Source of the DNA: Octopus vulgaris
Taxonomy: Eukaryota
DNA length: 64,000 bases
Assembly: GCA_951406725.2 (NCBI GenBank)
Contig: OX597815.1
Location: 104,594,001 to 104,658,000, forward strand
Direction: 5' to 3'
Positions 1,128-51,175 of this stretch are shown one piece after another (position 1 is the first letter of the stretch; each line of letters starts with the position of its first letter). Both the position numbers and the translations under genes were made by a program. The notes under the pieces were generated by a model. That model did no database searches. It was not told the DNA's origin and saw only the letters and a program-made list of their open reading frames with translations.

Positions 1128-1360
1128 CATCATCATCATCATCATCATCATTTAGCGTCCGTTTTCCATGCTAGCATGGGTTGGACGGTTCAACTGGTGT
1201 CTGGGGAGCCCGAAGGCTGCACCAGGCCAGTCAGATCTGGCAGTGTTTCTACAGCTGGATGCCCTTCCTAACGCCAACCACTCCGAGAGTGTAGTGGGTT
1301 ATTTTATGTGCCACCGACACAGGTGCCAGACGAGGCTGGCGAACGGCCACGCTCGGATGG
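1128..1360 (-). mobile_element. 3' tail of an RTE-related retroelement/SINE with (GAT)n tail
   Basis: (cat)n-ttagcgtccgttttccatgctagcatgggttggacgg...ctggatgcccttcctaacgccaacc. The same tail recurs at ~23245, 44725 and 46075, and in opposite orientation at ~655. Confidence 0.65.
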
Positions 1361-2750
1361 TGTTTTTATGTGCCACCGACACAGGTGCCAGACGAGGCTG
1401 GCAGACGGCCACGATCGGATGGTGTTTGTTACGTCCCCAAAGCACGGAGGCCAGTCTATGCGGTACTGGCTACGGCCACGTTCGGATGATTTTCTTGTAT
1501 GCCACCGGCACTGGTACCACAAAGATACAAATTCCATTGATGTTCATCTATTTTGATTTGTTTTGATTTGATTTGATTTTCACTTGCCTCAACAGGTCTT
1601 CACAAGTGTCACAAGAAGGAAGGTATGCACAGGTGGACTGACTACGTCCCAGGTAGGGGCCACGGGTTATGGCCTGACTAGTCTTGCCGGGTCTTCGGAT
1701 GGTGTTTTTATGTGCCACCGACACAGGTGCCAGATGAGGCTGGCGAACGGCCACGATCGGATGGTGTTTGTTACGTGCCCAAAGCACGGAGGCCAGTCGA
1801 TGCGGTACTGGCTACGGCCACGTTCGGATGGTTTTCTTGTGTGCCACCGGCACTGGTACCACAAAGATACAAATTCCATTGATGTTCATCTATTTTGATT
1901 TGATTTGATTTGATTTTCACTTGCCTCAACAGGTCTACACAAGTGTCACACACTTGCCTCAACAGGTCTTCACAAGTGTCATAAGTAGGAAGGTATGCAC
2001 AGGTGGACTGACTACGTCGCCGGGTCTTCGGATGGTGTTTTTATGTGCCACCGACACAGGTGCCAGATGAGGCTGGCGAACGGCCACGATCGGATGGTGT
2101 TTGTTACGTGCCCAAAGCACGGAGGCCAGTCGATGTGGTACTGGCTACGGGTACTGGAACCACAAAGATACAAATTCCATTGATGTTCATCTATTTTGAT
2201 TTGGTTTGATTTTCACTTGCCTCAACAGGTCTTCACAAGTGTCACACGTGTCACACACTTGCCTCAACAGGTCTCCACAAGTGTCACACACTTGCCTCTG
2301 CCTCAACAGGTCTTCACAAGTGTCACACACTTGCCTCAACAGGTCTTCACAAGTGTCACACACTTGCCTCAACAGGTCTTCACAAGTGTCATAAGAGGGA
2401 AGGTATGCACAGGTGGACTGACTACGTCGCCGGGTCTTTGGATGGTGTCTTTATGTGCCACCGACACAGGTGCCAGATGAGGCTGGCGAACGGCCACAAT
2501 CGGATGGTGTTTGTTGTGCCCACAGCACGGAGGCCAGTCGATGCGGTACTGGCTACGGCCATGTTTGGGTGTGGTTTTCTTGTGTGCCACCGGCACTGGT
2601 ACCACAAAGAATACAATTCCACTGATGTTCATCTATTTTGATTTGTTTTGATTTGATTTTCACTTGCCTCAACAGGTCTTCATAAGTGTCACAAGAAGGA
2701 AGGTATGCACAGGAGGACTGACTACGTCCCAGGTAGGGGCCACGGGTATG
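1300..2750. repeat. Higher-order tandem array: four ~330-410 bp units built from ~62-bp and 33-bp subunits
   Basis: Four near-identical GC-rich units begin (c/t)ggatggtgt(t/c)tttatgtgccaccgacacagg. The 33-mer cacttgcctcaacaggtcttcacaagtgtcaca is present about 1, 2, 5 and 1 times per unit. Confidence 0.95.
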
Positions 2751-13526: not shown

Positions 13527-13563
<37 letters not shown>

Positions 13564-13792
13564 GCTCACACAAACATTATGTTAGCTAGTACATGGCCTA
13601 CTCATTTGATCAGTTGTTGTGTGTGCTAAAGTTTGCAATACATGTAATGAATACTCTAAAATTGTCGTATATGATTTAGTTTTTCACAGTAAATGACTGT
13701 ATATTTTGGAGTGGATTGCAATTCTGTGTTTGATCTGGTGCTTGAGTATGCATATGAGGGACATTTAAGCTCAGAATCAGCTGAACAAGCAG

Positions 13793-13845
13793 TCCTTACT
13801 GAAGAGGCTACGGAAATAGCTGAAACTGAACGTTCAGTCTAAGGA
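13793..13845 (+). ncRNA. Minimal type I hammerhead ribozyme
   Basis: TCCTTA-CTGAAGA-GGCTA(cggaaa)TAGCT-GAAA-CTGAACGTTCAG-TC-TAAGGA. Stem I is 6 bp, the core is intact, stem II is 5 bp closed by G-U, stem III is palindromic, and the GUC triplet is at 13837-13839. Confidence 0.88.
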
Positions 13846-13897
13846 ATTCTCAAGTCAGTGTTTTTGGAAAATTACACAGCCCCTATGAACATATACA

Positions 13898-13961
<64 letters not shown>

Positions 13962-14390
13962 TATATATATACATACATACACACATTTATGTGCTTTTCC
14001 TTCAGCATTAGAGCATTTTAGCTCTTATTTCTAGCAATATAGGTGTCTTGTCACCTTTAGTCATGTTTAGTGACAATTATATTTTTTCCTTATGGTAACA
14101 CATTCCACATGGCTGTTTATAATAATTTATTCACACGCACACACACACTCACACACACACGCACTCACACACACACTCACACACACACACTGATATACAC
14201 ATATGACATTACAAGAATAATGTCAACAGTAACTTTGACGTTTTAGCCTGCTAGGGTTTTTCTATCCGAAATGATTTTTAACCAATATGTATGCACTATT
14301 ATCTATAGCTTTATTTGCTTTGAGATCTACTTTTGTTGGTTTTTTTGATTTTGCTTCCTGTCTCTGTCGGTCTGTCTCTCACTCTGTCTC

Positions 14391-40085: not shown

Positions 40086-41365
40086 GAAATAATAATAATA
40101 ATAATAATAATAATAATCCTTTCTACTATAGGCACAATGCCTGAAATTTTGAGGGAGGTGAGATAGTCGATTATATTGACCCCAGTACTTGACTGGTACC
40201 TTTTACATCAACCCTGAAAGGATGAAAGGCAAAGTCGACCACAGCAGAATTTGAACTTAGAATGTGAAATCAGATGAAATACTGTTAAGCATTTCATCCA
40301 GTATGCTAACAGTTCTGCCAATAATAATAATAATAATAATAATCTTTTCTACTCTAGGCACAAAGCCCGAAATTTTGTGGGAAGGGAGCCAGTCAATTAG
40401 ATCGAGCTCAGTATGCAACTGGTACTTAATTAATCGACCCTGACAGGATGAAAGGCAAAGTCGACGTTAGCAGAATTTGAACACAGAATGTTAAGGCAGA
40501 TGAAATACTATTAAGCATTTCACCCAGCATGCTAACGTTTCTGCCAGCTCTAATGATTTCTAATAAGGACTTGACTGGTACCTTTTACATCAACCCTGAA
40601 AGGATGAAAGGCAAAGTCGACCACAGCAGAATTTGAACTTAGAATGTGAAATCAGATGAAATACTGTTAAGCATTTCATCCAGTATGCTAACAGTTCTGC
40701 CAATAATAATAATAATAATAATAATCTTTTCTACTCTAGGCACAAAGCCCGAAATTTTGTGGGAAGGGAGCCAGTCAATTAGATCGAGCTCAGTATGCAA
40801 CTGGTACTTAATTAATCGACCCTGACAGGATGAAAGGCAAAGTCGACGTTAGCAGAATTTGAACACAGAATGTTAAGGCAGATGAAATACTATTAAGCAT
40901 TTCACCCAGCATGCTAACGTTTCTGCCAGCTCTAATGATTTCTAATTTAGGCAGGTGCCAGCAATTTTGAAGGAAGTATATTAATTGATACTATCAATCT
41001 CTGTACATGATTGGTATTTTATTTTAACAACTATTAAGGATGAAAGGTAAAATTTTAAAGAGCTATATTTCAAATGATTCTGTCAATTACTACTCTAGAG
41101 TATAAATAATAAGGCAACTGATAGGGTTTTTTTTGTGTTTTTTTTTACTAAAACATGGGCCTTACATTTTGGGAGAAGAGTGTGTAGTCAATTCAGTTGA
41201 CACCAGTATTTGACTACTACTTATGTTATCAGCCTTGGTAAAATGACAAACTTAATGCATTTGAACACAGAAAGATAAGAGAACCAAGTAACAACTATAA
41301 TAATCATAATGAAATTTTCTTGAAAGGTGAAAAGCAAAGTTGGCCTTAGCAGAATTTGAAATCAA
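39815..41365 (-). mobile_element. Cluster of ~7 co-oriented tRNA-derived SINE copies
   Basis: Repeated ggatgaaaggcaaagtcgac...cagaatttgaac...ttctgcca modules separated by (AAT)n. Confidence 0.9.
40187..40946. repeat. Apparently exact 378-bp tandem duplication
   Basis: 40187-40564 equals 40569-40946 with spacer aagg; the internal (AAT)n has the same length in both. Confidence 0.93.
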
Positions 41366-49179: not shown

Positions 49180-51175
49180 CTGGAAAAAATGGAGTCCTGC
49201 CACATGAGCAGAAGGGTTGCAAGTGTAAGTGCAGAGGTACCAAAGATCAACTCCTAGTAGACAAAATTGTACTTAGAGACTGCAAGAAGAGGAAAACTAA
49301 CTTAGCTATGTCATGGATTGATTATCATAAGGTGTACGATATGATCCAACATTCTTGGATTATGGAATGTATGAATCTATGGAATGTATGAACGCATTGA
49401 ATGTTGAGTGATTGCTTGGAAAAACTATGGTGAAGTGGAAGGCGGAACTGACAGCATATGGTAGAAGTTTAGGTATAATAGAAATCAGGAGAGGCATCTT
49501 ACAAGGGGACTGCCTGTCCCCACTGATCTTTGTACTGTGCATGATACAACTAACACTGATTCTGAGAAAAGTAAAGGCTGAGTATGTATTCAAAAGCCGC
49601 CAACAAAAAGTCAACCACGTGTTATTCATGGATGACCTCAAACTTTATGGTAAAGATGAATCCCAAGTCAGTTCCCTCGTTGATATGATGTATACTTTCA
49701 GTGTTGATATCAGAATGGAGCTTGGACTGAAAAAGTATTGTGTGTTAGTCTTCAAGAGATGCAAAATCAAATGTAATGATGGGCTAGTGATACTGTCAGG
49801 GGAGGTTATGAAGTAGAGAGAAAAAATAGGCTATAAGTACTTGGGGATATTGGAAATGGATAAATTGATGGAGAAAGAAATGACAGAAGTATTTGAGGTG
49901 GATTACTTGCACAAACTGAGACTGATCCTTATGTCGAAATTAAATGAATGGAATAAGATTAAAGCTATCAACACCTGGGTGGTTTCACTCCTTAGATAGG
50001 GGGCAGGGGTAATCGCATGGATAATAGACGAACTAAACAGCTTAGACAGAAAGACAAGGAAGTTGCTAACTAGACATGGGATACTTCACCCCCAAAAGTG
50101 ACACAGACAGACAGTATGTAGCAAGAAAAAGAGAGGGAAGAGGACTGATTGGATGCAAACACAGCATTAGAGCAGAAGAAAAGAACATAGCATGGTATGT
50201 AAAAAATGCCACAGAACCACTATTATTGGAAGTAAAAAGGTCAGGCTTGTGTAGGATGGAAGATTGCAAAGATAAAGCACTGTACAAGCACTTGAGAATG
50301 AATGAAACTGAAAATAGGTGGATAAAGAAAATAATGCATGGACAATTTCATAGGGATATTGAAGATAAGATAGACAGAGAAAAAAGATGGTTATGGATGA
50401 CTAAAATTGATTTAAAACCGAAAACAGAGGCTCTAATCTGTGCTGCCCAAGAGCAAGCACTAAGAATGAATTACATCAAATATAGAATAGACAACACATC
50501 AGAAGGTGATAAGTGCAGAATTTGTGGACAAAATGGTGAAACCATATGACATATTACCAGTCAATGTACACTACTAGCCCAGGAAGAATATAAGAGATGT
50601 CATGACAATATAGCAAGGATTGTCTGTTGTACACTTTGCAACAAGTATGGACTTGACAGAGCACAAAGTGGTACAAACAGAAACCCGGAGGCATCATCAA
50701 AAATGATAATGCAGAGATCCTATCAGATTTTATGATTCAGTGCAACCATGAGATAGGGAATAGGAAGCCAGACATAGTGTTAATTGAGAAAGAAAGCAAA
50801 CGATGCTGCATCATAGATATAGTATGCCCAGCTGAAAACAAGGTATGTGATGAAAGAAATGTCAATAAATATGACGATAAATATGTCAATAAATATGTCA
50901 ATGAATATGACATGTTAACTTGGGAGGTTAAGCAATTGTGGTCAATGAAAAAGGTGGTAGTAGTACCAATAATTGTTGGCAACAGTGAGTAAAAATCTTG
51001 AAAAGTACATAGAACATATAAGGGCTGGAATAAGGGTGAAGCACTTGCAGAAAACAACACTGCTTGGAACCGCTTGAATACTCTGGCTGGTGCTCGGAAA
51101 ATAAGGAGTGACCTTAGTTCACTGGTAGTGAACAGCTGGCACCATAGCACATCTCCAGTGATAGAAGCTGGATAA
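49180..51175 (+). mobile_element. 5'-truncated R4/Dong-like RLE non-LTR retrotransposon (RT, CCHC, restriction-like endonuclease), inactivated
   Basis: EQKGC...[54 protein letters not shown]...HITSQC, RCHDNI, KPDIVL..IIDI. Stops and frameshifts present; (TAA)n at both ends. Confidence 0.95.

What the first reader, a model, noticed from the sequence alone, without database searches (positions are those of the whole stretch)
13793..13845. Near-canonical minimal type I hammerhead ribozyme with a perfectly palindromic stem III
Seen: TCCTTA/TAAGGA stem I, CUGAAGA core, GGCTA/TAGCT stem II, GAAA, the 14-bp palindrome ACTGAACGTTCAGT, and a GUC triplet with predicted cleavage after 13839. The only deviation is G-U in place of G10.1-C11.1, consistent with CpG decay of CGAAA. 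Established: minimal type I hammerheads with palindromic stem III occur in Penelope-like elements and non-LTR retrozymes and can cleave as dimers. Inference: the ~250-nt block around it (about 13640-13890, between CA/TA tracts) is a retrozyme or pLTR monomer.
Basis: partly seen in the sequence, partly recalled or inferred. Interest (0 to 1): 0.85.

Follow-up and report, generated by a model that had tools for sequence, protein, structure and literature searches.

The report
Fossil Penelope-type retrozyme carrying intact hammerhead
A hammerhead ribozyme motif, predicted to cut its own RNA, sits in a truncated, decayed copy of a 350-base non-coding repeat with at least about a thousand old copies in this genome, which likely spread as RNA circles copied into DNA by Penelope-like retrotransposons: a new family of a known kind of element.

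Summary
The hammerhead at 13793-13845 is real. The core is intact, all 16 stem pairs form (one as G-U), and 0 of 200 shuffles give an equal match. Between subfamilies, four stem pairs change on both sides and the loop-3 palindrome covaries. It is not a 'minimal' hammerhead: helix III has 5 bp and helix I extends past an internal loop. The proposed 13640-13890 block is wrong. The element runs 13765-14128, holds 279 of 351 unit bases and is split by a microsatellite. The family has no ORF and is old (981 exact hits to an 18-mer; near-full-unit relatives at most 87% identical). It carries Penelope-like footprints: 5' truncation, head-to-head inversions (25 of 67 loci), two 3' ends about 50 nt apart, and TA/CA targets. 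22 of 112 fragments exceed one unit, and 5' ends show no excess at the cleavage site, which fits a circular or multimeric template. No autonomous partner was found. Cleavage and expression are untested. Verdict: an extinct non-LTR retrozyme family, a new member of a known kind. This single-ribozyme copy cannot make a unit circle by itself.

The parts
13765..13895 (+). 5' part of the repeat copy (unit positions 277-351 then 1-53, position 1 being the first base after the cleavage site); 5'-truncated, no inverted partner
   Evidence: 85.5% identity to the family majority; all non-self genome hits begin at 13760 or later
13793..13845 (+). Type I hammerhead ribozyme motif: stem I 6 bp, core, stem II 5 bp with G-U at 10.1-11.1, GAAA, stem III 5 bp plus 4-nt palindromic loop, GUC triplet
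   Evidence: sequence; descriptor and shuffles; pair counts
13825..13838 (+). 14-nt perfect palindrome: stem III as a monomer, or a 14-bp helix between two ribozymes
   Evidence: sequence; covariation of loop-3 pairs across subfamilies
13839..13840 (+). Predicted self-cleavage site, 3' of C17
   Evidence: established hammerhead numbering; not assayed
13780..13859 (+). Extension of helix I beyond a 3x3 internal loop (13780-13784 with 13855-13859; 13788-13789 with 13849-13850 remain paired); partly broken by CpG decay
   Evidence: constrained folds of the window copy and of the family majority
13896..13971 (.). CA/TA microsatellite grown inside the element at a short TA-rich stretch of the unit
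   Evidence: unit positions 48-53 appear on both sides of it; tandem repeat rows 13889-13990
13972..14128 (+). 3' part of the repeat copy (unit positions 48-204), ending at the family's commonest 3' end
   Evidence: 90.4% identity to the family majority; 3'-end clusters
14132..14191 (.). (CA)n tract at the 3' junction, the likely insertion target
   Evidence: 54 of 75 clustered 3' ends are followed by such tracts, against 446 of 3300 random distal 30-mers

Best explanation
This is a hammerhead ribozyme motif inside a truncated, decaying copy of an ORF-less repeat with a unit of about 351 nt, which likely spread as a non-LTR retrozyme using the enzymes of Penelope-like retrotransposons. Shown: the motif, the family, its unit length, its age, its insertion anatomy and the covariation of its stems between subfamilies. 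Inferred steps: (1) master loci with two or more units were transcribed; (2) successive hammerheads, alone or paired through the stem-III palindrome, cut out unit-length RNA that circularised into a strongly self-paired ring; (3) a Penelope-like reverse transcriptase with GIY-YIG endonuclease nicked TA/CA microsatellites, primed at AT-rich sites of the RNA and copied it, sometimes for more than one turn and sometimes with a 5' inversion; (4) the family died out and copies now decay, fastest at CpG. This copy holds one ribozyme and 279 of 351 nt. It could at most cut a read-through transcript, probably slowly because of the G-U pair, the damaged helix-I extension and a competing fold.
For: Family: 53 matches to the region; 981 exact matches to an 18-mer from the 3' part and 0 to its reversed control; 21 of 59 sampled segments keep that 18-mer, which suggests about 2,700 or more segments. 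Unit 351 nt, 38% GC; tandem periods mostly 345-361 nt. No PLE ORF homology within about 1.5 kb in 94 loci, 2 of them duplicates. Footprints: 25 of 67 loci with head-to-head inversion and 0 tail-to-tail; 75 of 109 3' ends in two clusters about 50 nt apart; 9 of 25 inverted loci have one long and one short end, against 2 with equal ends; 54 of 75 of those ends run into microsatellites. These match the PLE hallmarks in PMC8557442, section 6. Template: 22 of 112 fragments exceed one unit, up to 572 nt; 5 of 109 5' ends lie within 8 nt of the cleavage site, 5.0 expected by chance. Selection on past masters: with subfamilies included, 86.1% of cells pair and 69 cells change on both sides, 0 of 500 shuffles as high, at three stem-I pairs and one stem-II pair. 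The variants broadly follow a tree built from sequence outside the ribozyme (most forks weakly supported). The family majority folds with the hammerhead as its minimum-energy structure and as a circle with z = -6.65. Age: best near-full-unit relatives 84-87% identical. The genome holds young PLEs with 781- and 784-aa frames that also end in (TA)n.
Against: No cleavage assay and no RNA evidence. No autonomous partner: the unit matches the pLTR of none of the PLE loci tested (30, 7 and 38 loci; the one hit is a single locus with an old fragment upstream on the opposite strand). Long tandem arrays of the full unit, typical of published retrozymes, were not seen: the longest run is 1.6 units, and the only array has a 112-nt sub-unit. 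In the first, narrower alignment covariation did not exceed shuffles (37 rows; 137 of 500 as high for pairing). The later signal counts related copies many times and rests on about five events. One subfamily has a non-palindromic loop 3. The tail is about 50 nt, not the 30-40 bp described, and both 3' ends are TA-rich, so microhomology priming explains them too. Single real units fold less well as circles (z from +0.73 to -5.32, 21 units). No target-site duplication was found at this copy (longest shared word 7 nt).
Confidence: 0.8

Rival explanations
1. The copies are 5'-truncated 3' ends (solo pLTRs) of an extinct autonomous Penelope-like element whose full-length copies were not sampled. 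The hammerhead processed the retrotransposon RNA, and no free small circle existed.
For: All insertion footprints are those of PLEs themselves. Most PLE insertions are 5'-truncated, and pLTRs carry type I hammerheads (PMC4209133; preprint 10.64898/2026.07.22.740005). Only about 90 of several thousand segments were examined.
Against: Wherever a copy extends 5' past one unit it continues into more unit, never into coding sequence (22 of 112 fragments). No tblastn hit to four PLE frames in 94 loci. The unit folds as a closed self-paired ring. The ribozyme has the long-stem form, not the minimal PLE form.
Confidence: 0.13
2. This copy has been kept by the host as an active ribozyme that cuts a host transcript, like the intronic hammerheads of amniotes (recalled, not tested).
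For: It is the only one of 52 hammerhead-spanning segments with an intact core and all 16 stem pairs. Non-CpG differences are 2 of 47 inside the motif against 20 of 218 outside.
Against: That difference is not significant (Fisher p = 0.39), and the copy was picked because it looked good. 19 of 52 segments keep the core and 10 are near-intact, as neutral decay would give. C11.1 and the helix-I extension have decayed at CpG. No host exon was recognised: of 138 window frames scanned, only one RT fragment passed a Pfam cut-off.
Confidence: 0.05
3. The repeat is a DNA-level element (MITE, Helitron fragment or satellite), and the hammerhead is a passenger or a chance fold.
For: No clear target-site duplication. 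The 112-nt array on C25 did grow by DNA-level duplication, with a repeating higher-order pattern. The window copy does not prefer the active fold.
Against: Fixed 3' ends with spread 5' ends and 5' inversions point to reverse transcription. Compensatory stem changes between subfamilies need selection on the RNA fold. Chance is excluded by 0 of 200 shuffles.
Confidence: 0.02

Closest known systems
Non-LTR retrozymes of metazoans, closest the Mytilus galloprovincialis repeats of about 350-390 bp (Cervera and de la Pena 2020, PMC7229834)
   Same: Type I hammerhead in a non-coding unit of 150-450 bp, GC under 50%, thousands of copies, predicted self-paired circle, co-existence with autonomous PLEs.
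   Different: Here the copies are dispersed, truncated and old, with at most 1.6 units in a row. No expressed circle is shown. Helix III is long (5 bp, 14-nt palindrome). Sequence similarity to the mussel unit was not tested.
pLTR hammerheads of Penelope-like elements, minimal HHR (Cervera and de la Pena 2014, PMC4209133)
   Same: Palindromic positions around loop 3; G10.1-C11.1 in the family; an extra base between positions 9 and 10.1 in some subfamilies.
   Different: Helix II 5 bp (not 7-8), helix I 6 bp plus extension (not 4-5), helix III 5 bp (not 0-2). Not attached to an ORF. The long helix III resembles the fungal and protist PLE variants that cleave as monomers.
Endonuclease-positive PLEs, Neptune/Nematis type (Craig et al. 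2021, PMC8557442)
   Same: 5' truncation, partial tandems, inverted 5' copy, tail at one end, microsatellite targets.
   Different: No RT or GIY-YIG frame; tail about 50 nt; unit not homologous to the pLTRs of the two young families examined in this genome.
Vertebrate non-LTR retrozymes as non-autonomous PLE derivatives (Li, Clavereau, Pollet 2026, bioRxiv 10.64898/2026.07.22.740005)
   Same: Same proposed relationship; many monomer or partial copies.
   Different: Their link rests on pLTR homology and co-occurrence; here it rests on insertion footprints. This copy fails their 'active' criterion of two consecutive units with complete hammerheads.

Membership tests
Type I hammerhead ribozyme | Core C3 U4 G5 A6 N7 G8 A9, G12 A13 A14, A15.1-U16.1 and NUH triplet | tested here: met
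   13799-13805, 13822-13825, 13837-13839
Type I hammerhead ribozyme | Three helices, open at helix I | tested here: met
   6/6, 5/5 and 5/5 pairs; 0 of 200 shuffles as strong
Type I hammerhead ribozyme | G10.1-C11.1 pair | tested here: not met
   G-U in this copy; C in 35 of 50 family segments, so met by the family but not by the copy
Type I hammerhead ribozyme | Compensatory covariation of stems among homologues | tested here: met
   70 rows: four pairs with 12-20 two-sided changes each, 0 of 500 shuffles as high; not significant in the 37-row set; cells are not independent
Type I hammerhead ribozyme | Rfam gathering score | tested here: not met
   best RAGATH-1 hammerhead 18.7 bits vs 56.3; no Hammerhead_1 match at E up to 10
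Type I hammerhead ribozyme | Site-specific self-cleavage | not testable with these tools
   needs a transcription assay
Minimal PLE hammerhead (PMC4209133) | Helix II 7-8 bp, helix I 4-5 bp, helix III absent or very short | tested here: not met
   5 bp; 6 bp plus extension; 5 bp
Minimal PLE hammerhead (PMC4209133) | Palindromic 15.2-16.2 and loop 3 that allow a dimer | tested here: met
   perfect in this copy; 79.8% of cells paired across 70 rows; one subfamily departs
Non-LTR retrozyme (PMC7229834) | Non-coding unit of 150-450 bp, GC under 50%, carrying a type I hammerhead | tested here: met
   351 nt, 37.9% GC; no PLE ORF nearby
Non-LTR retrozyme (PMC7229834) | Tandem copies with two or more complete ribozymes | tested here: inconclusive
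   not met by this copy; 22 of 112 fragments exceed one unit, at most 1.6 units; L036 has two motifs, one with a broken core; 12 motifs in a 112-nt array
Non-LTR retrozyme (PMC7229834) | Highly self-paired circular fold | tested here: met
   family majority z = -6.65; single decayed units +0.73 to -5.32
Non-LTR retrozyme (PMC7229834) | Accumulation of unit-length circular RNA | not tested
   no read-level data were obtained
Autonomous Penelope-like element | RT plus GIY-YIG reading frame between pLTRs | tested here: not met
   no tblastn hit in the window or in 94 family loci
Penelope-like mobilisation (PMC8557442) | 5' truncation, partial tandems, inverted 5' copy | tested here: met
   25 of 67 loci inverted head-to-head, 0 tail-to-tail; 5' ends spread
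Penelope-like mobilisation (PMC8557442) | 30-40 bp tail at one end only | tested here: inconclusive
   two 3' ends about 50 nt apart; long plus short in 9 of 25 inverted loci, equal in 2, unclassified in 14
Penelope-like mobilisation (PMC8557442) | Insertion into TA/CA microsatellites | tested here: met
   54 of 75 vs 446 of 3300
Derivative of a named PLE pLTR (bioRxiv 2026) | Sequence homology to the pLTR of an autonomous family | tested here: not met
   none among the PLE loci; other or extinct families were not sampled

The most novel reading that the evidence does not exclude
The family is a circular-RNA parasite of Neptune-type Penelope elements, and its thousands of insertions record the copying of an RNA ring. 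Copies run through the cleavage site and beyond one unit, 3' ends are fixed, 5' ends ignore the cut, and subfamilies kept a dimer-forming palindrome while swapping its centre. That would be genomic evidence for the long-proposed circular intermediate in Penelope transposition, in a lineage where such elements have not been described.
Probability: 0.45. Interest if true: 0.5.

Novelty: new member of a known kind. Interest (0 to 1): 0.3.

Why it matters
Type I hammerheads in 150-450 bp repeats are common in animals, so one more decayed copy is ordinary. The family adds two modest things. First, an ORF-less retrozyme unit shows the insertion footprints of Penelope-like elements (inversions, a tail at one end, microsatellite targets). 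That supports by a different route the idea that animal retrozymes are moved by PLE enzymes, which so far rests on co-occurrence and pLTR homology. Second, copies longer than one unit, with 5' ends indifferent to the cleavage site, bear on the untested 2014 proposal of a circular template. Its subfamilies also give a natural set of compensatory variants of a long-stem, palindromic hammerhead for monomer versus dimer assays.

Tried and rejected
Rfam: no hammerhead family at cut-off. Pfam on 138 of 176 non-repetitive window frames of 55 aa or more: only an RT fragment at 49412-49813 passed a cut-off, so no host gene could be placed. Autonomous partner: GIY-YIG search (148 matches, 30 loci read), 15 wider PLE regions and a second young family (30 loci). 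The unit matched one locus only, as an old fragment on the opposite strand; rejected as a partner. Young subfamily: four unit queries gave no near-full-unit relative above 87%, and a 31-letter core pattern had 4 exact hits; only the top 40 candidates are scored per search. 5' ends at the cleavage site: no excess. Target-site duplication at this copy: none. Inverted fragment in 13561-13770: best E 0.15, rejected. Sequencing runs: no RNA holder listed; 9 of 22 listed runs hold part of the stretch, none on record as RNA; this is no evidence either way, and no read-level result was obtained. Covariation in the first 37-row alignment: not above shuffles. Effect of G10.1-U11.1: no paper held all three search terms, so the expected slowing is from memory. 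Earlier findings: three look-ups, nothing. Rows dropped: overlapping loci (L019, L020, L100, L103, L105 and re-fetched duplicates); L016 as a near-duplicate of L010 in most counts; all or most units of the C25 array; 8 of 78 profile hits that did not parse; 13 of 70 rows too short for the tree.

Full report
Observation. The motif is present as described: stem I 13793-13798 with 13840-13845, core 13799-13805, stem II 13806-13810 with 13817-13821, GAAA 13822-13825, a 14-nt palindrome 13825-13838 and GUC ending at 13839. A descriptor requiring all three helices gave 3 hits in the window, this one far the strongest; 0 of 200 shuffled windows gave one as strong. Rfam does not recognise it at cut-off (RAGATH-1 hammerhead 18.7 bits vs 56.3). 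For this copy ViennaRNA prefers, by 1.9 kcal/mol, a fold in which the 3' arm of stem III pairs with the core. The program ignores the tertiary core, so this lowers but does not exclude activity.

Host. The window lies on contig C2 of a 2.8-Gb assembly of 227 contigs, AT-rich and full of microsatellites. It looks like an octopus-type cephalopod; that label is recalled from genome size and familiar interspersed repeats and comes from no call. No host gene could be placed: of 138 frames scanned, only a reverse-transcriptase fragment near 49.4 kb passed a Pfam cut-off.

The element. Partial tandems define a unit of about 351 nt and 38% GC. The window copy covers unit positions 277-351 and 1-53 (13765-13895), then a 76-nt CA/TA expansion, then positions 48-204 (13972-14128), then a (CA)n tract. 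That is 279 of 351 nt with one ribozyme. An 18-mer of its 3' part has 981 exact matches in the genome and its reversed control none. 21 of 59 sampled segments keep the 18-mer, which puts the family at roughly 2,700 segments or more (the sample favours well-kept copies). The family is old: 12.6% non-CpG and 27% CpG divergence from the majority, and near-full-unit relatives at most 84-87% identical.

The ribozyme across the family. Of 52 segments spanning the motif, 19 keep the core and 10 are near-intact; the window copy alone has all 16 pairs. It is not significantly better kept than its own flanks (2 of 47 vs 20 of 218 non-CpG differences, p = 0.39). In 37 copies close to the window type, covariation did not exceed shuffles. 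With other subfamilies added (70 rows), 86.1% of cells pair and 69 change on both sides, 0 of 500 shuffles as high, concentrated at three stem-I pairs and one stem-II pair. The centre of stem III stays self-complementary while changing, except in one subfamily. These counts repeat a few inherited events many times. A tree of 57 rows on sequence outside the ribozyme shows the variants broadly following subfamilies, with few well-supported forks. The reading is that master elements were selected for the fold while the inserted copies decay. In the family majority the hammerhead is the minimum-energy fold and helix I extends past a 3x3 internal loop. With helix II at 5 bp and helix III at 5 bp this is not the minimal PLE form of PMC4209133. 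Some subfamilies carry an extra base between positions 9 and 10.1, as that paper describes.

How it moved. Among 67 loci with mapped fragments, 25 have a head-to-head inversion and none a tail-to-tail one. 75 of 109 3' ends fall in two clusters about 50 nt apart, and inverted loci pair a long with a short end in 9 of 25 cases against 2 with equal ends (14 unclassified). 54 of the 75 clustered ends run into alternating-base microsatellites, against 25 of 109 5' ends and 446 of 3300 random positions. These are the PLE hallmarks listed in PMC8557442, section 6, though the tail there is 30-40 bp. 22 of 112 fragments are longer than one unit, up to 572 nt. 5' ends show no excess at the cleavage site (5 of 109, 5.0 expected), so the template was not a single cleaved linear monomer; a circle or an uncut multimer both fit. 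The majority unit folds as a circle with z = -6.65; 21 real units range from +0.73 to -5.32.

The partner. The genome has young RT plus GIY-YIG families with 781- and 784-aa frames and the cysteine linker of the Neptune and Nematis clades; they also end in (TA)n. Their pLTRs are not homologous to the unit, and four PLE frames find nothing in 94 family loci. PLE-type mobilisation is therefore inferred from footprints, and the actual helper is unidentified and may be extinct.

Comparison and novelty. It works like a metazoan non-LTR retrozyme, and meets the unit, ribozyme and fold criteria of PMC7229834. The multi-unit tandem criterion is only partly met, and circular RNA is unshown. It is not an autonomous PLE and not a minimal PLE hammerhead. 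Searches for a description of such a family in cephalopods found none. The giant squid genome paper does list 235 Hammerhead_1 matches (PMC6962438), so cephalopod hammerheads are not new. Repbase and Dfam were not available, and supplements that I did not read (PMC7229834, PMC4209133, the 2026 preprint) may already list it.

Papers seen: bioRxiv 10.64898/2026.07.22.740005, parts 1-3 of 5; PMC8557442, 12 passages and section 6; PMC7229834, parts 2-3 of 6; PMC4209133, parts 1-2 of 4; PMC6962438, two passages. Others as search listings only. The effect of a G-U pair at 10.1-11.1 and the amniote intronic hammerheads are recalled.

Verdict. Observation confirmed; interpretation right in kind, wrong on 'minimal' and on boundaries. 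A decayed, sub-unit copy of an extinct, PLE-mobilised non-LTR retrozyme family (confidence 0.8). Cleavage, expression and RNA ends remain open. New member of a known kind; interest 0.3.

Noticed in passing
L021:4410-5757 (G000:C25, about 4,012,400-4,013,750): A unique array of 12 x 112-nt units, each holding the family's hammerhead region, embedded in one insertion. Units differ by 0-11 bases with a repeating four-unit pattern; 5 of the 11 units scored keep CUGA. No second such array among 40 scored candidates.
   Followed up: partly
L088:5566-5594 and the matching place in L089-L091: The pLTR of the young 781-aa PLE family carries a hammerhead-like core of the U3-A8 type with a short palindromic stem III, like the variant described in PMC4209133; helix I not checked.
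   Followed up: partly
L088-L091, L094 and L133-L162: At least two very young Neptune/Nematis-type PLE families with many intact 781- or 784-aa frames and near-identical copies, many in inverted pairs. The 781-aa family has an upstream frame of up to 479 aa with no Pfam match.
   Followed up: partly
window 13798-13803 and 13825-13838: The stem-I/core junction repeats the 5' arm of stem III, so the 3' arm can pair with either; the alternative fold hides the core and could act as an off state.
   Followed up: partly
window 49412-50992 (+): Broken non-LTR retrotransposon in several frames: RVT_1 match (E 5.8e-10) followed by a cysteine motif and a frame that resembles a restriction-like endonuclease (label recalled).
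   Followed up: no
window 1302-2640 and 40094-40946: Clusters of interspersed repeats in partial tandem (periods 342, 33, 382 and 226 nt), probably SINE-like (recalled).
   Followed up: no
L010 and L016: Two loci on different contigs share about 93% identity over more than 1.1 kb including an inverted retrozyme insertion: an old segmental duplication.
   Followed up: no
L092:2428-3000: A 287-nt direct repeat (88% identical) follows the GIY-YIG frame of another PLE family, probably a duplicated pLTR.
   Followed up: no
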